A stretch of DNA of 64,000 nt. Origin: a virus (taxonomy: Duplodnaviria; Heunggongvirae; Uroviricota; Caudoviricetes). Shown piece by piece: positions 652 through 63,721 of this stretch (position 1 is the first letter of the stretch; each line of letters opens with the position of its first letter). The stretch lies in IMG/VR virus record IMGVR_UViG_648028025_000005. One strand, given 5' to 3'. The notes under the pieces are model-generated. The model was not told the DNA's origin. It did no database searches and saw only the letters and a program-made list of their open reading frames with translations. Both the position numbers and the translations under genes were made by a program.

Positions 652-803
652 CAGTCAGTGTTTCTGGCTAACCAGCGACGCGCGCCAGCTTCAGTTTTAA
701 ACGTTTTGCTTTTGGTATACGTCATCGCGGTGAACGTACCGTCCTGGTTGGGAAACACGCCGCATACCAGAGATTCGTTGTTGCCAAGATTGAGCGTATC
801 CAT
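651..803 (-). CDS. small hypothetical protein (50 aa), translationally coupled to the 216-aa ORF
   Basis: ATG at 801-803 preceded by GAGG; stop overlaps next start; below six-frame track length cutoff; first ORF after the conserved leader element. Confidence 0.3.
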   Translation of the reverse strand: MDTLNLGNNESLVCGVFPNQDGTFTAMTYTKSKTFKTEAGARRWLARNTD

Positions 804-816
804 GTTGACCTCATTC

Positions 817-971
817 CCCCTTAACGCCGGGTCGCGGAACTAAAAACCTGCTGCGCTGTTATACAAAGTGTTCCCGCCGTCATGTTCATACGCCTCGGGC
901 TGGCTACTTAACCCCTGACCACTGCTTGGTAACTCGAAGTATTGCCCGGCGTTCTGTGGGGCGGGGTGGGT
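817..971. promoter_or_regulatory. conserved ~155-bp leader-like element just outside O_L (copy A)
   Basis: near-identical copy at 49659-49813 in prophage B; in both prophages it lies between the O_L palindrome and the first leftward gene. Confidence 0.4.
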
Positions 972-995
972 GGTTGGTGTATGTAATCTACAAGT

Positions 996-1022
996 AAAAA
1001 CTGTTTTGTGTCAACAGTTTTT
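996..1022. promoter_or_regulatory. O_L-type palindromic operator (AAAAACTGTT-N7-AACAGTTTTT)
   Basis: perfect inverted repeat read from sequence; same half-sites recur in the repressor/cro intergenic region at 2029-2057. Confidence 0.45.
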
Positions 1023-1079
1023 AATTGTTGTTTTGGGCAAAAAAATCCCTCGAAAGAGGGAGTATGAAAATTGTTCAAC

Positions 1080-1367
1080 TCAGATAGAGAAGGGAAATTG
1101 TCGCCGAGAATGTGTCACGCTTACAATCTCAATGCTTGAAGCAGCTACTCTGTACAGGATTATGTAGTTAGGGTGGGTCACGATCTCTCTCAATCCAGAA
1201 ACCCGTTCGCTTGGTGGATATAAGTACGGATGCTCAGATAGAGGTAATACCGATGTTTCAATGCGTATTTTTAGTCTACGTGCTGCCGGTGGGTTCTCCT
1301 TGGCGATGTAAGTTATGATCTGGCGCAAATCATCGCGAGCAGACGGTAGCCATAAAATGGGTAACAT
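1080..1367 (-). CDS. parE: type II toxin, ParE/RelE superfamily (ParE of a three-component paaR-paaA-parE module)
   Basis: 95 aa; ParE-like C-terminal pattern LREIVTHPNYIILYRV...HSRRQFP; start overlaps stop of upstream antitoxin ORF; operon position. Confidence 0.85.
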   Translation of the reverse strand: MLPILWLPSARDDLRQIITYIAKENPPAARRLKIRIETSVLPLSEHPYLYPPSERVSGLREIVTHPNYIILYRVAASSIEIVSVTHSRRQFPFSI

Positions 1368-1558
1368 TACTCGCTCTTGTTAGTTACAGCAATTTGAGCA
1401 ATAAGATTTTCCATTTCAGCCATTACCTCGTCATGTGGAATTGCGGGGCGAGTGTCTGCAAGGCTTGACGTTACTTTAGTGCGCAACCATTCGTTGTAAC
1501 TGTTTTCTTGTTCGGTAGTTTCGAATTCTGAAACTATCGGAGAAAGGGCTGTACCCAT
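1367..1558 (-). CDS. paaA: PaaA-family antitoxin (63 aa)
   Basis: 63-aa ORF immediately upstream of and overlapping parE; N-terminal SEFETTEQENSYNEWLR segment typical of PaaA-type antitoxins (recalled, not searched). Confidence 0.75.
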   Translation of the reverse strand: MGTALSPIVSEFETTEQENSYNEWLRTKVTSSLADTRPAIPHDEVMAEMENLIAQIAVTNKSE

Positions 1559-1585
1559 GGCATAACTCCTCTTCTTGTACTGTGG

Positions 1586-1987
1586 TCACGCCCGGCGGCT
1601 TTTTTGTGCCGCCAGCCACCTAGCAATGGTTTCTTCCATTGATTTTTTCTTGTCTTTGATTTCTTGAAGCATTTTTTCTTGGTCTTCCTCAGGAAACGCA
1701 CTAAAAGCTTGGAGCAGTTCGCGTTGGCGAGGACCAATTTTCATCGTGTCAGGGGTGAAAATTTGCTCACACTCTTCAGGAGGCAATAAAAACCAATGCA
1801 ATGGATGCCCTGAAACCTCAACCAGTTTATCCAAACTTGAGGCTTTAGGTGTAGCCTTACCGCTGACCCATTGTTGAACAGTTTGTTGTGTCACACCAAT
1901 TCTACGGGCAAGCTCAGCCTGGCTCCATCCAGTTTCCTGAAGAAGCTTGCTGATTCTGTACATAGATACTTCTAGGGCGCTCATCAT
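1586..1987 (-). CDS. paaR: HTH XRE-family repressor (PaaR/RacR-like); immunity repressor of prophage A
   Basis: 133 aa; helix-turn-helix QAELARRIGVTQQTVQQW; divergent from Cro-like gene across an operator-bearing intergenic region; first gene of repressor-antitoxin-toxin operon. Confidence 0.8.
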   Translation of the reverse strand: MMSALEVSMYRISKLLQETGWSQAELARRIGVTQQTVQQWVSGKATPKASSLDKLVEVSGHPLHWFLLPPEECEQIFTPDTMKIGPRQRELLQAFSAFPEEDQEKMLQEIKDKKKSMEETIARWLAAQKSRRA

Positions 1988-2095
1988 TATTCAATTTTAC
2001 AGGTAAATACTGTTAAAAGCATCACAATAAAAAACTGTTGATTGCATACAGTTTTTTATTGTAGGCTTTGCTTATAGTTTTTAGAGGAGGGCAAA
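1988..2095. promoter_or_regulatory. divergent repressor/cro promoter-operator region (O_R-like), prophage A
   Basis: palindrome AAAAAACTGT-N9-ACAGTTTTTT at 2029-2057 plus an extra ACTGTT half-site upstream; lies between divergent repressor and cro-like genes. Confidence 0.5.
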
Positions 2096-2368
2096 ATGCT
2101 AGATAGCACTCGCGAAAAAATTAGGCAGAAATACACTCAGGCTGAAATAGGTCGTTATATGGGGGTCGCTCAACAGACTGTTTGGCAATGGTTTAGCTTT
2201 GGCGTTCCCCCAAAGCAGGTAATTCCGTTATGCCAACTAATGAAGTGGGAAGTTACCCCGCATGAAATCCGCCCAGATATTTATCCTAACCCAACCGACG
2301 GTTTACCTGTTGGATGTAAGGTTAACACATCAAATGCGCCGGAGTTGATTCATGAAAATCAAGCATGA
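2096..2368 (+). CDS. ydaS: Cro/YdaS-like HTH protein
   Basis: 90 aa; HTH segment QAEIGRYMGVAQQTVWQW; cro position; homolog in prophage B at 51151-51411. Confidence 0.7.
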   Translation: MLDSTREKIRQKYTQAEIGRYMGVAQQTVWQWFSFGVPPKQVIPLCQLMKWEVTPHEIRPDIYPNPTDGLPVGCKVNTSNAPELIHENQA

Positions 2369-2777
2369 ACACATCCGCATGGCGATGAATGCCTGGGCGC
2401 ATCCGGACGGCGAAAAAGTACCGGCTGCGAAAATTACCAAAGCGTATTTCGAGCTGGGAATGACGTTCCCGGAACTGTATGACGACAGCCATCCGGAAGC
2501 CATGGCTCGCAATACTCAGAAAATTTTCCGCTGGGTGGAGAAAGACACTCCTGATGCGGTTAAAAAAATTCAGGCGTTGTTACCAGCGATCGAAAAAGCG
2601 ATGCCGCCTCCGCTGGTGGCCCGAATGCGCAGCCACAGTTCCGCTTATTTTCGGGAGTTGGTAGAGACGAAGGAACGGCTGGTGAAAGATATTGATGATT
2701 TCGTTGCATCAGCGATCGTTCTGTTCGATCAGATGAATCGTGGTGGCCCGGCAGGAAACACTCTGGCTGTGCATTAA
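2352..2777 (+). CDS. ydaT: YdaT-like protein (CII position)
   Basis: 141 aa starting MKIKHEHI; overlaps ydaS-like stop; C-terminal half conserved with prophage B copy (51408-51845). Confidence 0.7.
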   Translation: MKIKHEHIRMAMNAWAHPDGEKVPAAKITKAYFELGMTFPELYDDSHPEAMARNTQKIFRWVEKDTPDAVKKIQALLPAIEKAMPPPLVARMRSHSSAYFRELVETKERLVKDIDDFVASAIVLFDQMNRGGPAGNTLAVH

Positions 2778-3406: not shown

Positions 3407-4633
3407 ATGAGCCTGATAAAGGCTTTTCAAAAAATACATGTCGAACCTCCTCTGGTTCTGTCGATTGGGAACCACAGATTATATCCGGAGGAAGGTTCGG
3501 CACCAGATGAGGTAGCCATGCGTGATTACGCAAAAGTTTCTCCGCGATTCTGGCTGGGAGAAACGGGGAGAGAACTTAGAAAGGCGGGTGCAGAAGCGCA
3601 AGTTGTTGCTTTTTACCTGATGACATCCCCTCACGCAAATATGCTGGGTTTGTATTACCTGCCAGTTTTATACCTTGCTCATGAAACCGGGCTTGGTCTG
3701 GAAGGGGCTTCAAAGGGGCTTAAAAGGGCTGTTGAAGCTGGTTTTTGTAGCTATGACCATGATGCAGAGATGGTCTGGGTCCATGAAATGGCAGCCTGGC
3801 AGGTTGGGGAAACGTTGAAGCCTGGCGATAACCGTTGTGCAGGTGTCAGGAATGAGTATGCATCATTACCTGAAAACGCTTTTCTGTCAGTGTTTTACGA
3901 CAGATATAAAACGGATTTCCATCTGGATGTGAGGCGGAATAATAGCCGAAATTCGGTAAGGGGCTTCGAAGGGGCTTTTAAGGGGCTTCGAAGCCAAGAA
4001 CAGGAACAGGAGCAGGAGAAAGAACAGGAACAGGACAAAAACACTATGGTTCATGGCAAAAAAAACACCACGAACCAGGCAGGGGATGTTCAGACCGTCA
4101 ATCCTGGTCAGCCAGCAGGCACGACACCGGAAGCCGATTCAGCGTATGCGCTGAAAGCCGATTCGGGCGCTGTGCAGCAGGTGATGACCGCAAGGCCGAA
4201 GCAATCACACCAACTGCAGCAGCCTGAAGCCGATTCCGCCATTCAGCGGGAAGCCGATCGGGTAGTCCCGGAAAACACCGGGCTGTCTGTGGGACGAGTG
4301 GATTATCCGGATGTGTTCGAACAGGTCTGGCGGGAGTACCCGTTGCGTGCCGGAGCAAACCCGAAGAAATCCGCATTCAGTGCCTGGAAGGCCAGATTGC
4401 GCGAGGGGGTGCCACCAGAGACCATGCTGGATGGTGTGAGGCGTTACGCGAGATACCTGGCGGCGACCGGGAAAGCGGGAACGGAATTTGTTCAGCGAGC
4501 GACGACGTTTTTTGGGCCGGACCGGAATTTTGAAAACCCCTGGTTGCTCCCGGTAAGCGGCACGAACAACCAGCGTTGTGTGAATCATATTTCTGAACCG
4601 GATACCGAAATTCCGCCGGGATTCAGGGGGTGA
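3407..4633 (+). CDS. phage replication initiation protein (O position); start uncertain
   Basis: 408-aa ORF upstream of DnaC-like loader; internal acidic EQEQEQEKEQEQ linker; alternative start ATG 3518. Confidence 0.55.
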   Translation: MSLIKAFQKIHVEPPLVLSIGNHRLYPEEGSAPDEVAMRDYAKVSPRFWLGETGRELRKAGAEAQVVAFYLMTSPHANMLGLYYLPVLYLAHETGLGLEGASKGLKRAVEAGFCSYDHDAEMVWVHEMAAWQVGETLKPGDNRCAGVRNEYASLPENAFLSVFYDRYKTDFHLDVRRNNSRNSVRGFEGAFKGLRSQEQEQEQEKEQEQDKNTMVHGKKNTTNQAGDVQTVNPGQPAGTTPEADSAYALKADSGAVQQVMTARPKQSHQLQQPEADSAIQREADRVVPENTGLSVGRVDYPDVFEQVWREYPLRAGANPKKSAFSAWKARLREGVPPETMLDGVRRYARYLAATGKAGTEFVQRATTFFGPDRNFENPWLLPVSGTNNQRCVNHISEPDTEIPPGFRG

Positions 4634-7197: not shown

Positions 7198-8088
7198 TCA
7201 GGCTGCCAGATCATCGTTTCCGATGGAAGCATAATAAGCTTTTTCTGCTTCTGCCGGAGGAGTATGGCCCAGCCTTCCCAGCAATCGTCGATTGTTATAC
7301 CAGTCCACCCACGTTAGTGTGGCCAGTTCCACTTCTGCACGGTTTTTCCAGCTCTTACGGTGTATTACCTCCGCTTTGTAAAGACCATTGATGCTCTCAG
7401 CCATCGCGTTGTCATACGAGTCGCCTGTACTCCCTGTTGATGCCAGTAATCCGGCTTCTTTTAGTCGCTCCGTATAGGCCAGTGACACATACTGAGAGCC
7501 TTTATCGCTGTGATGGATGGTGCCAGACGGACGACGGGCCCACAACGCCTGCTCCAGCGCATCCAGCACGAATGTCGTTTCCATAGACGATGAGACCCGC
7601 CACCCCACGATGTATCCGGCAAACACATCAATGATAAACGCCACATAGACGAAGCCCTGCCATGTGCTGACGTAAGTAAAATCAGCCACCCACAGCTGGT
7701 CAGGTCGTTCTGCCACGAACTGACGGTTTACGCGGTCGCCTGCGGCAACGGCTTTCCGGCTGATGGTCGTACGGACCTTTTTACCCCGGAGAACACCGGC
7801 AAGTCCCATAACCGCCATGAGACGTGCCACTGTACATCTGGCCACCCTGATTCCTTCCCGTAACAACTGACGCCAGACTTTACGCACACCGTACACCTGA
7901 TGATTTTCATCGTATACGCGCTGTATCTCTCTCTTCAGCCAGTCGTCGTGCTGCGCACGGGCACTGCGTTTATCCGGATGATGTCGCTGTTGCTGACAAT
8001 GGTAATACGTTGACGGGGCAATATGCAGTTCGCTGCATACCGGTCCGACCCCGTACTGCTCACGCAGCTTATCCAGCAGTGGCATCAT
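7198..8088 (-). CDS. IS629 transposase OrfB (DDE catalytic domain)
   Basis: 296 aa, recognised IS3-family OrfB sequence ([16 protein letters not shown]...). Confidence 0.9.
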
Positions 8089-8411
8089 TTTTTCCAGAGG
8101 CGGTCGAACTCCGCCTTCGCAAAATAAGCGGAAGCCTGGCGAAGGATATCGTTACTGCGGCGCAGTTCACGATTTTCACGTTCCAGCTCTTTCAGACGCT
8201 GACGTTCAGCGCTGGTGAGCCCACCATCACCGCCCCCGGTATCCCGCTCATGCTGGCGAACCCAGACACGCAGGGTCTCCGGCGTACAGCCAATCTTTGG
8301 GGCAATGGAACAAATTGCCGCCCACTGTGAGTCATATTCATCCTGACTTTCCAGAACCATACGAATCGCCCGCTGACGGACTTCGGGGGAAAAACGAGTA
8401 TTTTTAGTCAT
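8085..8411 (-). CDS. IS629 transposase OrfA
   Basis: 108 aa HTH protein [19 protein letters not shown]...; overlaps orfB start at A-rich run (GGAAAAAATGATG). Confidence 0.9.
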
Positions 8412-9499
8412 CCTGTTTACCTCTTTCTCAGGGAGTTTAGTCTCCAGGATTTCCGGGGCGGTTCATATACTTTTAGTGTGCTTTGATTCTGATATATCAT
8501 CTTTAATTATCTTGATGATTCTTTCATTCTGCCATAGAAGTGATGGTGCAGATATATAATAATAGTTAAAGCATGAATTATTTTTTAAGCAATCAAGCAC
8601 AAAAATAGCACCTAGCGAGTGCCCCCATATACCGATTCTGGAACTGTTCGGAGCAATAGTACTAACCCATGGCATGATCTGAGTTAGTAATAATTCTCGG
8701 AAAGACTGGCTTCCTCCACCAGTAAAGTAGATCCATGCTGGTTTAGAGTTATCAACAATAGCATTTTCACCATCAGGAGTATAATCGTAAGCACGGCGAT
8801 GAATGCTAAGGTTATTCCAAGATTCATAACCAAGTGTAACTAACACTGGTGGATTGGGTAGTGCATCAATAACAGGCAGAATATCAGAAATGTAATTGTT
8901 GGCACTATTCCCATCAAGTATATAAAGAGTTGCATTATTTTTTTTAATGTTTTTTGGAGTAAAAATACATATTTTATATTTGGTGTCATGGTTAATTGAG
9001 TTAAATATGCGTGTTTGACAATGAATGTCCATATGTTTAGTCATGCGTTCTCCCCATGAGCATTAAAGGATGCTTAAGATATGCTATGTCACTGATAAAA
9101 AATTTGTTGTGTGTGTTTAGTTATTTTATCTACCTCCATTATGATTTAAGACTGATATATGTTATCAGCAAAGGTACATCGTTATTATTTTACCTGTCAA
9201 TACATTTGATATTGATTATCGTTTACATCGCTTGCTTAGGAAATTGAAGGCAGGTAACTATCATGTCAATGAACTAACCCACAGTCTAACGTACTTCTTT
9301 CCCCAATCACCAACAACCAAATTCCTGTTATCACCACTGGGATTTTGGCGCAACTTCATGGTGCAGAGGTAAATAGCATCAAGCAAAATCTCTTTTTCCG
9401 TTGTTGTCCTTATGGGACGTCTGTCTTTCTGACCGATTTCATATTGGCGAGGTAATGGGAAGTTAAGTAGAATAGCTGCGGGTGCTTGAGGCTATCTGC

Positions 9500-9648
9500 C
9501 TCGGGCATGAACACCAACGGCAGATAGAGAAAAGCCCCAGTTAACATTACGCGTCCTGCAAGACGCTTAACATTAATCTGAGGCTCAATCTATGAACGGC
9601 AAATCTAGGTTAGCCTCTTACGTGCCGAAAGGCAAGGAGAAGCAGGCT
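9500..9648. promoter_or_regulatory. hok leader region; expected location of mok start and antisense sok RNA
   Basis: by analogy with hok/sok loci only; in-frame upstream extension of hok ORF begins at 9592; no sok promoter mapped. Confidence 0.3.
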
Positions 9649-9804
9649 ATGAAGCAGCAAAAGGCGATGTTAATCGCCCTGATCGTCATCTGTTTAACCG
9701 TCATAGTGACGGCACTGGTAACGAGGAAAGACCTCTGCGAGGTACGAATCCGAACCGGCCAGACGGAGGTCGCTGTCTTCACAGCTTACGAACCTGAGGA
9801 GTAA
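9649..9804 (+). CDS. hok: Hok/Gef-family type I toxin (HokD/RelF-like, 51 aa)
   Basis: MKQQKAMLIALIVICLTVIVTALVTRKDLCEVRIRTGQTEVAVFTAYEPEE; single transmembrane helix; followed by terminator. Confidence 0.85.
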   Translation: MKQQKAMLIALIVICLTVIVTALVTRKDLCEVRIRTGQTEVAVFTAYEPEE

Positions 9805-14379: not shown

Positions 14380-14455
14380 GGCCCTTTAGCTCAGTGGTGA
14401 GAGCGAGCGACTCATAATCGCCAGGTCGCTGGTTCAAATCCAGCAAGGGCCACCA
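14380..14455 (+). tRNA. tRNA with CAU anticodon (Ile2/Met type, ileZ-like)
   Basis: 76 nt cloverleaf read by eye; acceptor GGCCCTT/AAGGGCC; anticodon loop CT-CAT-AA; T arm GCTGG-TTCAAAT-CCAGC; CCA encoded. Confidence 0.85.
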
Positions 14456-14462
14456 TCACATA

Positions 14463-14539
14463 CCGCCATTAGCTCATCAGGAAAGAGCGCCAGCTTTCGA
14501 AGCTGGTTGCGCGGAGTTCGGGTCCCCGAAGGCGGTCCA
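14463..14539 (+). tRNA. tRNA-Arg(UCG)-like, degenerate copy
   Basis: anticodon loop TT-TCG-AA; relative to canonical B copy (62477-62553) it has an A-A acceptor mismatch, an A-C T-stem mismatch and altered T loop TTCGGGT. Confidence 0.55.
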
Positions 14540-14552
14540 TTATCTGTATCCT

Positions 14553-14629
14553 GCGTTGTTAGCTCAGCCGGACAGAGCAATTGCCTTCTAAGCAATCGGT
14601 CACTGGTTCGAATCCAGTACAACGCGCCA
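14553..14629 (+). tRNA. tRNA-Arg(UCU) (argO-like)
   Basis: 77 nt; acceptor GCGTTGT/ACAACGC; anticodon loop CT-TCT-AA; T arm ACTGG-TTCGAAT-CCAGT; CCA encoded. Confidence 0.85.
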
Positions 14630-14643
14630 CACTTATTTTCCCT

Positions 14644-14669
14644 GGCTCGCTTTTGCGGGCCTTTTTTTT
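14644..14669 (+). terminator. rho-independent terminator after tRNA cluster
   Basis: hairpin GGCTCGC-TTTTG-CGGGCC followed by TTTTTTTT. Confidence 0.5.
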
Positions 14670-14734
14670 AAATGTCTCACAATTCAGGCGGTTGACTGTT
14701 GTCTGGTTTGCGGGGAGTTTGTTAAAAGAAACTG

Positions 14735-14842
14735 GCATGGTGAATCCCCCTGTGCGGAGGGGCAATCAGCGAGTAGGTATATGGGATAATCGCGGATTCA
14801 GGTGCTGGTACTGAATTCACCGGGAGGCACCCGGCACCATGC
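14735..14842. promoter_or_regulatory. conserved ~105-bp non-coding element upstream of nanS-p (copy A)
   Basis: ~90% identical copy at 63442-63549; contains hairpin CCCCCTGTGCGGAGGGG; A copy followed by hairpins at ~14868-14920. Confidence 0.35.
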
Positions 14843-15118
14843 AATGGCACATAGCGCCACTCTCCAGCCCCTCTCCGGAGGGGCTTTCTTATGGACAAAA
14901 AAAGCCCGCGCAGGGAGACGCGGGCGGCAAGGAATAAACAACAAAACGTGAAGTAATATTTCAGCTGGCGAATAATATCCGACAGTAATCACTCTGCGCA
15001 ATAGCGCGGCCTTTTTCGTATTGCGGGCTGTTGTCTCTCTTCTGCCATTGTCCTGTAACTTCCGGACTTCAGCCCGCTCCTCATTTTACTCACAATATTA
15101 TCCCGGCCGGGAGGATTC

Positions 15119-62391: not shown

Positions 62392-62467
62392 GGCCCTTTA
62401 GCTCAGTGGTGAGAGCGAGCGACTCATAATCGCCAGGTCGCTGGTTCAAATCCAGCAAGGGCCACCA
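62392..62467 (+). tRNA. tRNA with CAU anticodon (Ile2/Met type)
   Basis: identical in sequence to 14380-14455. Confidence 0.85.
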
Positions 62468-62476
62468 TATCACATA

Positions 62477-62553
62477 CCGCCATTAGCTCATCGGGACAGA
62501 GCGCCAGCCTTCGAAGCTGGCTGCGCGGGGTTCAAGTCCCCGATGGCGGTCCA
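62477..62553 (+). tRNA. tRNA-Arg(UCG), canonical copy
   Basis: acceptor CCGCCAT/ATGGCGG fully paired; anticodon loop CT-TCG-AA; T arm CGGGG-TTCAAGT-CCCCG. Confidence 0.8.
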
Positions 62554-62566
62554 TTATCAGCATCAT

Positions 62567-62643
62567 GCGTTGTTAGCTCAGTCGGACAGAGCAATTGCCT
62601 TCTAAGCAATCGGTCAGTGGTTCGACTCCACTACAACGCGCCA
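62567..62643 (+). tRNA. tRNA-Arg(UCU)
   Basis: anticodon loop CT-TCT-AA; T arm AGTGG-TTCGACT-CCACT. Confidence 0.85.
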
Positions 62644-62649
62644 CACTTA

Positions 62650-62680
62650 TTTTCCAGGCTCGCTTCGGCGGGCCTTTTTT
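62650..62680 (+). terminator. rho-independent terminator after tRNA cluster
   Basis: GGCTCGC-TTCG-GCGGGCC followed by TTTTTT; approximate coordinates. Confidence 0.5.
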
Positions 62681-62812
62681 GTATCTGCGCCACGCCCGGC
62701 GCATATCAACCACAGAGCCTTTCGGGGGTGAGCTTACGGAGTGGTCAGTGTGACTTTCTCTGTGGGCAGATCGCTCCCGGGCGTTGGCTCACCCACCCAA
62801 AGGAACGTCACG

Positions 62813-63244
62813 ATGTTTGGAATCTTCAAAAAGAAAACCCGCAGAGCGGCAGCGGAAATTAAAAAGTTTGAGAAACGCGATCTGGCACAGGCGGTGATTA
62901 ACGCTGCATACCTGGTGGCCTATGCAGATGGTGAATGCGAGGCATCCGAGAAAGCGAAGATCGAACAGGTCTTACGTAATCAGCCTGCGTTGTCTGCGTT
63001 TACCTCGGAAATTAATGCGATTAGCGCAACTATTATCGGTCAGCTGGATACCAATTTTAAAATTGGTCGTCGTGCCGCGTTACGCGAGATTGAGGATGTG
63101 AAACACGATACGCGTGAAGCGGAAGATGTGCTGGATGTGGCGGTGGCCATTGCGGAGGCAGACGGCGAAATTGAGCCGGAAGAGCGCAAGGTGCTGGAAG
63201 AGATTGCCGGTGTTCTGGGTCTTCGTCTGGAGAATCACCTGTGA
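62813..63244 (+). CDS. TerB-family protein (tellurite-resistance TerB-like fold)
   Basis: 143 aa from ATG 62813; two TerB-like repeats with acidic loops (AAYLVAYADGECEASEKAKI and VAVAIAEADGEIEPEERKVL). Confidence 0.6.
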   Translation: MFGIFKKKTRRAAAEIKKFEKRDLAQAVINAAYLVAYADGECEASEKAKIEQVLRNQPALSAFTSEINAISATIIGQLDTNFKIGRRAALREIEDVKHDTREAEDVLDVAVAIAEADGEIEPEERKVLEEIAGVLGLRLENHL

Positions 63245-63408
63245 CGGTAAAACTGCGCCTGGCTGTGGCTGCACTCCTGCTGTTTCTGGTGGTGATGGTG
63301 GATTTCACCAGCAGAATCATGTCGGTGCTGGCGGATGGGGTGCTGGTCTGCGGCATTGTGGTATTGCTGTGGCCGGTGATAAAAAGAAACAGCCTGCATA
63401 ATGCTTGA
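63241..63408 (+). CDS. small membrane protein (55 aa), coupled to TerB-like gene
   Basis: GTG 63241 overlapping TerB-like stop (GTGA); two hydrophobic helices; below track cutoff. Confidence 0.3.
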   Translation: MTVKLRLAVAALLLFLVVMVDFTSRIMSVLADGVLVCGIVVLLWPVIKRNSLHNA

Positions 63409-63441
63409 TTTTTTTGTTTGCTGTTTATTAAAAACACTTCT

Positions 63442-63549
63442 GCATGGTGAATCCCCCTGTGCGGAGGGGCGATCAGCAACCAGGTATATGGGATAATCGC
63501 GGATTCAGGTGCTGATACTGAATTCACCGGGAGGCACCCGGCACCATGC
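63442..63549. promoter_or_regulatory. conserved ~105-bp non-coding element upstream of nanS-p (copy B)
   Basis: ~90% identical to 14735-14842. Confidence 0.35.
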
Positions 63550-63721
63550 TTTGCCACAAAAGTGTTGTTTCTGTTTTTCTCAAACTATCATCGTTATCCC
63601 TTTATTTCCGGCTGCGCATGGCGTGGCCTTTTTTTACGACCAGCCACTGGCAGATGGCCATCCTGTAATTTGATTCCGGTTCCGGCTTTTTAACTCTGTT
63701 CCTGTACACGGGAGAAATTCG

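What the first reader, a model, noticed from the sequence alone, without database searches (positions are those of the whole stretch)
817..2095. Toxin-antitoxin cassettes occupy the rex-equivalent slot between O_L and the repressor in both prophages
In A, the repressor is co-oriented with a 63-aa antitoxin and a ParE toxin (paaR-paaA-parE-like), bounded by O_R (2029-2057) and O_L (996-1022) palindromes. In B, the same slot (49820-51030) holds higB-higA on the opposite strand. The flanking leader element and repressor family are conserved while the cassette is swapped, which suggests a modular addiction/defence hotspot tied to immunity control.
Basis: partly seen in the sequence, partly recalled or inferred. 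Interest (0 to 1): 0.6.

Follow-up and report, generated by a model that had tools for sequence, protein, structure and literature searches.

The report
Toxin-antitoxin pairs inside two prophage immunity regions
Two E. coli prophages each carry a toxin-antitoxin pair between the repressor gene and the left operator, the place where phage lambda keeps rexAB; one pair is an already published system and the other is a new but ordinary example of the same arrangement.

Summary
Prophage A (817-2095) has, on the minus strand, an HTH repressor, a 63-aa PaaA antitoxin and a 95-aa ParE toxin. A terminator follows. The unit is bracketed by two copies of AAAACTGT-N9-ACAGTTTT, which occur nowhere else in the 64 kb. 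Prophage B has higB-higA on the plus strand between its own operator pair (TTACAAAT...ATTTGTAA) and a 31%-identical repressor.

Locus A is 100% identical to a locus in E. coli O157:H7. It is almost certainly the published three-component paaR1-paaA1-parE1. Its sister, paaR2-paaA2-parE2, was shown in 2021 to be a cI analogue plus TA, with PL/OL beyond the toxin. The cI-to-N gap is already described as a mosaic and defence hotspot.

The "swapped cassette" reading is only partly right.
- The whole immunity module is exchanged between a conserved ~170-nt PL leader and the ydaS 3' end/ydaT.
- Cargo never separates from its repressor: higBA and repressor B occur together in 148 of 148 places.
- 10 of 16 immunity types that share the leader carry no cargo.
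- higBA has its own promoter and operator, is not in the repressor operon, and has relatives on plasmids.

Low-to-moderate interest; a new member of a known kind.

The parts
804..985 (-). Conserved ~170-nt leader at the 5' end of the PL transcript in prophage A, and the left homology flank of the immunity module
   Evidence: 82% identical to B 49657-49865. The same sequence precedes 16 different immunity types in IMG/VR loci and always ends at ...GTGGGGCGGGGTGGGT. No Rfam hit and no excess folding stability (z = 0.32).
985..1033 (.). OL(A): palindrome AAAAACTGTT-N7-AACAGTTTTT overlapping PL (-35 TTGACA 1014-1009, -10 TAGATT 990-985, minus strand)
   Evidence: The block is 35 of the first 46 aligned columns identical to the PR/OR block.
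1046..1061 (-). Intrinsic terminator ending the repressor-antitoxin-toxin transcript (TCCCTCTTTCGAGGGA followed by TTTTTTT)
   Evidence: It lies 19 nt after the parE stop codon and before PL.
1080..1367 (-). parE toxin gene (95 aa)
   Evidence: PF05016 at 2.9e-17. 3e-36 to ParE2 5cw7_B, with 67% identity.
1367..1558 (-). paaA antitoxin gene (63 aa, no DNA-binding domain); its stop codon overlaps the parE start by 1 nt
   Evidence: PF21217 at 5.6e-19. 1.4e-20 to PaaA2 3zbe. 70% identical to PaaA2 over 56 aa.
1586..1987 (-). paaR-type immunity repressor (133 aa): N-terminal HTH plus a PaaR-type C-terminal domain
   Evidence: HTH_3 at 2.3e-12. Aligns to the DicA model over positions 9-131 of 135. 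42% identical to PaaR2 over the C-terminal 98 aa only.
2024..2062 (.). OR(A): perfect palindrome ACAATAAAAAACTGT-N9-ACAGTTTTTTATTGT. The likely PR is TTGATT (2038-2043), an 18-nt spacer, then TAGGCT (2062-2067). A possible second imperfect site lies at 1993-2020.
   Evidence: The PR assignment rests on its near-identity to the PL block; it falls below the promoter scan's threshold.
2096..2368 (+). ydaS (Cro analogue). Its 3' part from ~2246 begins the right homology flank.
   Evidence: PF15943 at 8e-10. 51% identical to the B ydaS product. Nucleotide similarity to B resumes at 2246.
2352..2777 (+). ydaT (CII analogue), the conserved right flank
   Evidence: Annotated as YdaT family. 78-100% identical in most loci surveyed, but only 31-34% in those with a B-type YdaT.
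49657..49820 (-). The same PL leader in prophage B
   Evidence: Folding z = 0.81.
49824..49878 (.). OL(B)/PL(B): TTACAAAT...ATTTGTAA repeats overlapping -35 TTGACC (49852-49847) and -10 TAAATT (49829-49824), minus strand
49886..49914 (+). higBA's own promoter and operator: weak -35 TTGCAT, palindrome AGTCCCA-AAA-TGGGACT (49893-49909), -10 TACTAT (49909-49914) ending 6 nt before the higB ATG
   Evidence: The palindrome plus -10 is conserved upstream of higB copies that are 73-80% identical in nucleotide sequence, on a P1-like plasmid and a 40-kb plasmid, while the surrounding DNA is unrelated.
49921..50223 (+). higB toxin gene (100 aa)
   Evidence: PF09907 at 4.8e-33. 3e-07 to HigB 5ycl_B/5ifg_A. 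PADLOC PD-Lambda-2_A at 1.1e-40.
50226..50585 (+). higA antitoxin gene (119 aa, C-terminal HTH)
   Evidence: HTH_3. 3e-09 to HigA 5ycl_A/5ifg_B. Matches positions 1-119 of the 402-position PD-Lambda-2_B profile at 1.7e-42.
50601..50638 (.). 10-bp-stem hairpin between the convergent higA and repressor genes, followed on the plus strand by GTTTTGTTTTT. Probable terminator for higBA.
   Evidence: repeat I7. The promoter/terminator scan did not call it because the loop is 18 nt.
50632..51024 (-). Immunity repressor B (130 aa from the ATG at 51024)
   Evidence: HTH_3 at 6.6e-09. Aligns to the DicA model over positions 6-132 of 135. 31% identical to repressor A. RefSeq start as.
51079..51119 (.). 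OR(B), with candidate divergent promoters (plus strand TTGAAA-17-AATTAT; minus strand ATGACA-16-TAAATT)
51151..51845 (+). ydaS-ydaT of prophage B (Cro and CII analogues)

Best explanation
Both loci are lambda-style immunity regions of Rac/Qin-like lambdoid prophages in an E. coli O26-type chromosome. Each carries a type II toxin-antitoxin pair as cargo between the 3' end of the repressor gene and OL/PL, the position of rexAB in lambda.

Prophage A. The locus is the known three-component paaR-paaA-parE system, most likely paaR1-paaA1-parE1 of CP-933M.
- The repressor binds the duplicated AAAACTGT-N9-ACAGTTTT operators at OR and OL.
- This shuts off PR (ydaS-ydaT and replication genes) and PL.
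- The repressor's own transcript continues through paaA and parE to a terminator just before PL.
- PaaA has no DNA-binding domain, so antitoxin supply depends on the lysogenic (repressor) transcript.
- If that transcript stops or the module is lost, labile PaaA decays and ParE, a gyrase-type poison, is freed. The cell is therefore addicted to this immunity module.

Prophage B. An autonomous higBA cassette lies in the same gap, convergent to the repressor. It has its own HigA-operator promoter, back-to-back with PL. It is a canonical ribosome-dependent mRNase toxin plus HTH antitoxin, with relatives on plasmids.

Exchange of modules. The modules are not exchanged cassette by cassette. The whole OL-cargo-repressor-OR-ydaS(5') block moves by homologous recombination in the conserved PL leader and the ydaS 3' end/ydaT.

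Shown here: gene identities, operator duplication, promoter and terminator placement, linkage statistics, module boundaries.
Inferred from the published PaaR2 system: repressor binding, operon transcription, addiction.
Inferred from sequence only: HigA operator function and toxicity of both toxins.
For: - Protein identities.
- Each operator motif occurs exactly twice, flanking the unit, with about 0 expected.
- PL overlaps OL in both prophages, and a terminator follows parE.
- In A, the PL/OL and PR/OR blocks are near-duplicates.
- Across 16 immunity types, OL and OR share type-specific k-mers. The mean longest shared k-mer is 11.1 within a type and 7.7 between types.
- Window 1040-2060 is 100% identical to O157:H7 genomes, and 437 genomes are at least 99% identical.
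- PMC8630535 shows that PaaR2 footprints on OR and represses PR and a PL promoter beyond parE2, and that the locus stabilises a plasmid; it cites earlier work for the operon organisation and for PaaA2 being degraded by ClpXP/ClpAP. It also states that a homologue sits in CP-933M.
- Module boundaries.
- Linkage: higBA with repressor B in 148 of 148 places, inside 10 different flanking contexts.
- Partial hits for A cover parE, paaA and only the 3' part of paaR.
- higBA relatives on a P1-like plasmid and another plasmid keep the palindrome and -10.
Against: - No experiment here shows binding, transcription or toxicity for these particular alleles.
- The A repressor's HTH domain is unrelated to PaaR2's, so the operator assignment rests on duplication and promoter overlap.
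- No PR or PRM in A passed the promoter scan's threshold.
- The mBio study could not detect ParE2 activation in any transcriptional state, so the biological payoff of the TA is unproven.
- The IMG/VR sample was capped at 120 rows per scan and is rich in E. coli isolates, so frequencies are rough.
- The equation of A with 'paaR1' rests on identity to O157:H7 plus the paper's statement. It does not rest on a named sequence.
Confidence: 0.8

Rival explanations
1. Free cassette hotspot. The gap between OL and the repressor is an insertion hotspot, and unrelated cargo cassettes are swapped in and out independently of the repressor and operators.
For: Two unrelated TA families and many empty sites occupy the same gap in prophages that share the leader and ydaT. 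higBA is a self-contained cassette also found on plasmids. The literature calls the cI-N gap a mosaic hotspot (PMC8585504).
Against: No repressor allele was seen with two different cargos or both with and without cargo. Repressor B and higBA are together in 148 of 148 places. Every PaaA-ParE comes with a PaaR-type C-terminal domain. Only TA cargo was found in about 130 loci. Similarity between A and B breaks in the PL promoter and in ydaS, not at the cassette edges.
Confidence: 0.15
2. Anti-phage defence, like rexAB. The TA pairs are abortive-infection modules kept in the most highly expressed lysogenic region. They fire when a superinfecting phage shuts off transcription or degrades the antitoxin.
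For: The position matches rexAB and BstA (PMC8585504). HigB and HigA match the first component and the N-terminal 119 positions of the second component of the PD-lambda-2 defence system, at 1e-40 and 2e-42. PD-lambda-2 protects against lambda-vir (PMC9519451).
Against: PD-lambda-2 needs a peptidase fusion and a third gene, both absent here. ParE and PaaA have no PADLOC match. No defence phenotype has been reported for paaA-parE. This reading is not exclusive of the addiction reading.
Confidence: 0.25
3. The palindromes are transcription terminators or chance AT-rich repeats, not repressor operators.
For: OL(A) lies downstream of parE and could form a hairpin with flanking A/T runs. No binding data exist for these alleles.
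Against: The same motif recurs between the divergent repressor and ydaS genes, where a terminator makes no sense. It contains the -35 of PL, and a separate GC-rich terminator sits at 1046-1061. Chance expectation is about 0. The same OL/OR pairing holds across other immunity types and was confirmed biochemically for the PaaR2 type.
Confidence: 0.03

Closest known systems
paaR2-paaA2-parE2 of cryptic prophage CP-933P, and its homologue paaR1-paaA1-parE1 in CP-933M, in E. coli O157:H7 (Hallez 2010; Jurenas 2021, PMC8630535)
   Same: Locus A has the same three genes in the same order and on the same strand, the same leader and PL beyond the toxin, and the same divergent ydaS-ydaT. ParE is 67% and PaaA 70% identical to system 2. 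The PaaR C-terminal domain is 42% identical. The DNA is 100% identical to a locus present in O157:H7 genomes.
   Different: Compared with system 2, the repressor's N-terminal HTH and the operator sequence differ: AAAACTGT-N9-ACAGTTTT here, against a GTTTAGTAA consensus there. It is therefore a different immunity specificity. Compared with system 1 there is probably no difference at all.
Lambda cI-rexA-rexB-timm-OL/PL, and BstA downstream of cI in phage BTP1
   Same: Lysogenically expressed cargo sits between the repressor gene and OL/PL, and is co-oriented with the repressor in A. The cargo is lethal or abortive in nature.
   Different: There is no sequence relationship to RexA, RexB or BstA. 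The cargo here is a type II TA. In B the cargo is convergent to the repressor and has its own promoter.
Canonical HigBA type II TA (E. coli K-12 HigBA, PDB 5ifg/5ycl)
   Same: The toxin gene comes first. The toxin is a RelE-fold HigB and the antitoxin has a C-terminal HTH. A palindrome lies in the promoter.
   Different: Sequence similarity to the K-12 pair is only distant (E about 1e-7 to 1e-9). Here the pair is embedded in a prophage immunity region, back-to-back with PL.
PD-lambda-2 anti-phage system (Vassallo 2022, PMC9519451)
   Same: There are very strong profile matches of HigB to component A and of HigA to the first 119 positions of component B.
   Different: The C-terminal ImmA/IrrE-type peptidase of component B and the whole of component C are lacking. 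Both belong to the described system, and C is required for defence.

Membership tests
PaaR-PaaA-ParE three-component TA | ParE-fold toxin homologous to ParE1/ParE2 | tested here: met
   PF05016 at 2.9e-17. 3e-36 to 5cw7_B over the full length, with 67% identity.
PaaR-PaaA-ParE three-component TA | Short PaaA antitoxin without a DNA-binding domain, immediately upstream of the toxin | tested here: met
   PF21217 at 5.6e-19. 1.4e-20 to PaaA2. 63 aa. Its stop codon overlaps the parE start.
PaaR-PaaA-ParE three-component TA | Separate co-oriented HTH regulator (PaaR) upstream, in one operon | tested here: met
   The HTH_3 repressor ends 27 nt upstream of paaA, which leaves no room for a promoter. 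Its C-terminal domain is 42% identical to PaaR2. A single terminator follows parE. Co-transcription itself was not measured.
PaaR-PaaA-ParE three-component TA | Toxicity of ParE, neutralisation by PaaA, repression by PaaR | not testable with these tools
   Demonstrated only for the O157:H7 systems (PMC8630535 and the references in it).
Lambda-type immunity region (cI/Cro/CII logic) | Divergent repressor and cro-like genes with shared operators, repeated at a distant OL that overlaps PL | tested here: met
   YdaS and YdaT are present. Actual binding was not testable.
HigBA type II TA | HigB (RelE-fold) toxin encoded first, followed by an HTH antitoxin HigA | tested here: met
   PF09907 at 4.8e-33. 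Matches to HigB and HigA structures. The two genes are 2 nt apart.
HigBA type II TA | Own autoregulated promoter with a palindromic operator | tested here: inconclusive
   The palindrome AGTCCCA-N3-TGGGACT plus a TACTAT -10 is conserved in three otherwise unrelated contexts. Binding and transcription were not tested.
PD-lambda-2 defence system | Component B is a HigA-like HTH fused to a C-terminal peptidase domain | tested here: not met
   HigA is 119 aa and aligns only to positions 1-119 of the 402-position profile. Only 46 nt separate it from the convergent repressor gene.
PD-lambda-2 defence system | Third component C (related to a P4 antitoxin), required for defence | tested here: not met
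   There is no third co-oriented gene. The genes downstream of the plasmid copies have no PD-lambda-2 match either.
RexAB | Homology to RexA/RexB | tested here: not met
   Pfam and PADLOC scans of all cargo proteins return only ParE, PaaA and HigBA-type families. The resemblance is positional only.

The most novel reading that the evidence does not exclude
TA pairs lodged between OL and the repressor may be selected as guardians of the immunity module itself, and possibly as rex-like abortive-infection triggers.
- Antitoxin supply depends on (A) or sits beside (B) the lysogenic transcript.
- Replacing the imm block by recombination in the conserved leader and ydaT flanks would therefore free the toxin.
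- Transcriptional shut-off by a superinfecting phage would do the same.
- The strict 148 of 148 linkage of higBA with its repressor would be a footprint of that selection.
- So would the PaaR-C-terminus/PaaA/ParE block that recombines only within paaR.
- The two-gene HigBA would then be a minimal relative of the PD-lambda-2 defence system.
Probability: 0.3. Interest if true: 0.5.

Novelty: new member of a known kind. Interest (0 to 1): 0.27.

Why it matters
It shows that the published paaR-paaA-parE arrangement is not a one-off. At least two unrelated TA families have settled in the rexAB-equivalent gap of one widespread group of E. coli prophages, and each is locked to one immunity specificity. 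That gives a clean natural system for testing what TA pairs do for prophages. The system offers the same leader, the same ydaT, and 16 or more immunity types with or without cargo. The candidate roles are addiction of the immunity module, protection against heteroimmune replacement, or abortive infection. The practical gain is small, because the genes are already correctly annotated in RefSeq and the concept is already in the literature.

Tried and rejected
- Structured-RNA or riboswitch reading of the conserved leader. There is no Rfam hit even at E <= 1, and folding energy is no better than shuffles (z = 0.32 and 0.81). Rejected.
- A conserved small protein encoded in the leader. The ORF that starts at the conserved GAGGCGUAUGAACAUG is 22 aa in A, 62 aa in B, and fused to DUF1391 in some loci. 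It is not consistently coding.
- Scan of one genome per species for the leader 18-mer. It gave only 7 hits, of which Escherichia ruysiae and Shigella flexneri are plausible; the other five are from unrelated taxa, and none of the seven was examined. The leader therefore looks confined to Escherichia and Shigella, and this scan added no new cargo types.
- Search for a cargo-less relative of repressor B, to define an insertion scar. None exists at blastn sensitivity.
- Second survey anchored on ydaT, to find other cargo. It found more cargo-less immunity types and more paaA-parE, and nothing new.
- PD-lambda-2 membership. Rejected, because there is no peptidase domain and no third gene.
- Terminator reading of the OL palindrome. 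Rejected.
- Structure prediction was not run. Sequence matches to solved structures were already decisive.
Full report
**Source and setting.** The window is 100% identical to the chromosome of E. coli O26 strain RM10386. It holds two Rac/Qin-like lambdoid prophages about 48.6 kb apart. Each has integrase, exonuclease VIII, dicB, an immunity region, ydaS-ydaT and replication genes. A DicF RNA lies in prophage B.

**Checking the observation, prophage A.** On the minus strand lie three genes.
- A 133-aa HTH repressor at 1586-1987. It matches HTH_3 at 2.3e-12 and aligns along its full length to the DicA model.
- A 63-aa PaaA antitoxin at 1367-1558. It matches PF21217 at 5.6e-19 and PaaA2 (PDB 3zbe) at 1.4e-20.
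- A 95-aa ParE toxin at 1080-1367. It matches PF05016 at 2.9e-17 and ParE2 (5cw7_B) at 3e-36 over residues 1-93.

The gene spacing fits a single transcript. The paaA stop overlaps the parE start by one base. Only 27 nt separate the repressor's stop from the paaA start. A GC-rich terminator (1061-1046, minus strand) follows parE.

The two palindromes are real. The motif AAAACTGT-N(5-13)-ACAGTTTT occurs exactly twice in 64 kb, at 997-1021 and 2031-2055, with 0.00 expected. The left copy contains the -35 of a 10/12 sigma-70 match pointing left: TTGACA at 1014-1009, an 18-nt spacer, then TAGATT at 990-985. The left and right promoter-operator blocks are near-duplicates, with 35 of the first 46 aligned columns identical. 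On that basis I place PR at TTGATT (2038-2043), an 18-nt spacer, then TAGGCT. That site is too weak to pass the scan on its own.

**Checking the observation, prophage B.**
- higB (49921-50223, plus strand; PF09907 at 4.8e-33) and higA (50226-50585; C-terminal HTH) match the solved E. coli HigB and HigA structures.
- They are convergent with a 130-aa repressor (50632-51024) that is 31% identical to repressor A.
- B has its own operator motif, TTACAAAT...ATTTGTAA. It too occurs exactly twice, at 49827-49875 and 51080-51117, with 0.01 expected.
- The left copy overlaps a leftward promoter: TTGACC at 49852-49847, a 17-nt spacer, then TAAATT.

**What is exchanged between A and B.** BLAST of the two regions finds similarity only in two places. 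One is A 814-1026 against B 49657-49865, at 82%. The other runs from A 2246 / B 51301 onward, which is the 3' part of ydaS and then ydaT. The alignment shows that identity stops inside the PL promoter. The differing block is therefore PL/OL, cargo, repressor, OR and the HTH-coding part of ydaS. That is a whole immunity module, as in classical lambda imm434 or imm21 hybrids, and not just the cassette.

**Survey of related prophages.**
- An 18-mer from the leader retrieved 120 IMG/VR loci. Of these, 109 have a complete interval from leader to ydaT.
- With the two window copies they fall into 16 immunity types. All start diverging at the same point after ...GTGGGGCGGGGTGGGT, and nearly all keep a TTGAC -35 at the same distance.
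- Ten types (88 loci) have nothing between OL and the repressor. These include LexA-like 212-240-aa repressors and the RacR type.
- Five types (18 loci) carry paaA-parE.
- One type (3 loci) carries higBA.
- A second scan anchored on ydaT added two more cargo-less types and no new cargo.
- Deposited phage genomes show the same picture. Tritos, 683R6 and 640R1 have empty gaps. Phage Evi carries the PaaR2-type locus with an unannotated parE.
- Within each type, OL and OR share type-specific sequence. The mean longest shared k-mer is 11.1 within a type against 7.7 between types. This generalises the operator inference.

**Linkage of cargo and repressor.**
- The B block (49800-51150) is present in 147 of 5,426 complete E. 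coli genomes, always at full length.
- Repressor B with OR, searched alone with sensitive blastn, is found in exactly the same 147 genomes and 148 places.
- The identical HigB protein sits next to HigA and the 130-aa repressor in ten otherwise different gene contexts.
- For A, 590 genomes have a match and 506 of these are full length.
- The partial matches for A cover parE, paaA and only the 3' end of the repressor gene (query positions 82-648 or 54-714).
- Accordingly, all five PaaA-ParE-linked repressors share a C-terminal ...FPEEDQ...ARWLAAQK domain but have different N-terminal HTH domains. Cargo-less repressors and repressor B have a different C-terminal subtype...LLDELP....
- One locus, L054, has two PaaR-like genes in tandem, which is probably a recombination scar.

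**higBA is an autonomous cassette.**
- Relatives at 73-80% nucleotide identity lie on plasmids, which account for 114 of the 264 places.
- One is a 93-kb plasmid with P1-like tail, baseplate and maturation-control genes. Another is a 40-kb plasmid, where the pair sits next to a TenpIN toxin gene.
- Homology covers just the two ORFs. However, a palindrome, (A)GTCCCA-N3-TGGGAC(T), followed by TACTAT or TATTAT, is conserved directly upstream of higB in all three contexts.
- In the window the palindrome lies at 49893-49909, and the -10 ends 6 nt before the ATG.
- higBA therefore brings its own HigA-operator promoter, placed about 10 bp from the last OL half-site and back-to-back with PL.
- In contrast to A, it is not part of the repressor operon. 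A 10-bp-stem hairpin (50601-50638) separates the convergent genes.

**Comparison with what is known.**
- Window 1040-2060 is 100% identical to O157:H7 genomes at about 1.15-1.27 Mb.
- Jurenas et al. 2021 (PMC8630535) describe paaR2-paaA2-parE2 of CP-933P as a cI analogue plus TA within a lambda-like immunity region. In their study PaaR2 and YdaS footprint on OR, a PL933P promoter with OL1-3 lies beyond parE2, expression is bistable and the locus stabilises a plasmid. They also state that a homologue sits in CP-933M.
- The PaaR2 type is cluster L008 in my survey. Locus A differs from it: ParE is 67% identical, PaaA 70%, and PaaR 42% in the C-terminus only.
- Locus A is therefore, by inference, paaR1-paaA1-parE1.
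- Owen et al. 2021 (PMC8585504) already note that the region between cI and N is a hotspot of mosaic diversity (citing Degnan 2007). They also note that it holds rexAB in lambda and bstA in BTP1, probably because it shares the strong lysogenic promoter.
- I found no paper describing higBA in this position.

**A lead on defence.**
- PADLOC models of the PD-lambda-2 system match HigB (component A, 1.1e-40) and HigA (positions 1-119 of the 402-position component B, 1.7e-42).
- In Vassallo et al. 2022, PD-lambda-2 is a HigB-like protein, a HigA-like HTH fused to a peptidase, and a third gene that is needed for defence against lambda-vir.
- The peptidase domain and the third gene are both absent here, and also absent next to the plasmid copies.
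- The locus is therefore not a PD-lambda-2 system, although it is a close relative of part of one. ParE and PaaA have no PADLOC match.

**Mechanism, and how sure each step is.**
- Firm: the architecture, with operators at both ends, PL overlapping OL, cargo in the gap, and a terminator.
- Inferred by homology with the PaaR2 system: co-transcription of A, a labile PaaA, ParE as a gyrase-type poison, and addiction.
- Supported by comparative sequence only: an autonomous, self-repressed higBA in B.
- Open: whether either TA serves the prophage by addiction of the imm module, by resistance to heteroimmune replacement, or by abortive infection. The mBio authors could not detect ParE2 activation in any state.

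**Verdict.** Locus A is already known. Locus B is a new member of a known kind. The added value is threefold: the whole-module (not cassette) exchange, the strict cargo-repressor linkage, and the contrast between a repressor-dependent TA and an autonomous TA in the same slot.

Noticed in passing
window 804-985 (minus strand) and 49657-49820 (minus strand); IMG/VR loci L003-L122: A ~170-nt sequence at the very start of the PL transcript is 80-95% conserved in front of at least 16 different immunity types and different first genes. It starts with a C-rich, G-poor tract (CCACCCACCCCGCCCCACAGAACGCC), has no Rfam match, and folds no better than shuffled sequence. It may be a recombination linker for imm-module exchange, a Rho-loading (rut-like) region, or another kind of 5' UTR signal. 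Its function is unknown.
   Followed up: partly
window 803-893 (minus strand); 49543-49731 (minus strand): An ORF starts at a conserved GAGGCGU-AUGAACAUGACGGCGGG within the leader. It is 22 aa in A and 62 aa in B, and it is fused in frame to DUF1391 in some related loci (L158, L164). This looks like a decaying or variable first gene of the PL operon.
   Followed up: partly
locus L054 (IMG/VR 2534681737_000010), positions ~729-1592 of the extracted segment: Two PaaR-like repressor genes lie in tandem upstream of paaA-parE. The proximal one has an extended C-terminus. This looks like a scar of recombination inside paaR.
   Followed up: no
locus L132 (Escherichia phage Evi, LR597642.1) 3785-4060, minus strand: A deposited phage genome carries the PaaR2-type locus, but its parE gene is not annotated. 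The protein is 67% identical to the window's ParE.
   Followed up: partly
window 48602-48653 (minus strand): A DicF antisense sRNA (Rfam RF00039, 75 bits) lies in prophage B upstream of dicB. No Rfam DicF hit was found in the part of prophage A covered by the window, because that part lies beyond the window start.
   Followed up: no
window 9480-9654 (plus strand) and 8014-8130 (minus strand): A sok antisense RNA of a hok/sok type I TA (RF01794, 107 bits; hokD is annotated nearby in RefSeq) and an ALIL frameshift pseudoknot of an IS3-family element lie inside prophage A. This gives the prophage a second, unrelated TA.
   Followed up: no
window 14380-14896 and 62392-63585: Both prophages carry a three-tRNA cluster followed by an STnc100 sRNA match, in the same order.
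   Followed up: no
window 49301-49507 (plus strand): A 68-aa CxxC...CxxC protein (RefSeq 'ECs_2282 family putative zinc-binding protein') is encoded antisense to the PL operon of prophage B, just beyond the leader. A 118-aa minus-strand ORF that RefSeq does not annotate overlaps it.
   Followed up: no
window 1988-2000 (minus-strand upstream of the repressor ATG at 1987) versus 51025-51045: Repressor A has a TAAAAT -10-like hexamer 6 nt upstream of its ATG and no Shine-Dalgarno sequence. This suggests a leaderless mRNA, as shown for paaR2 and lambda cI. Repressor B instead has a GAGGGG Shine-Dalgarno sequence.
   Followed up: no
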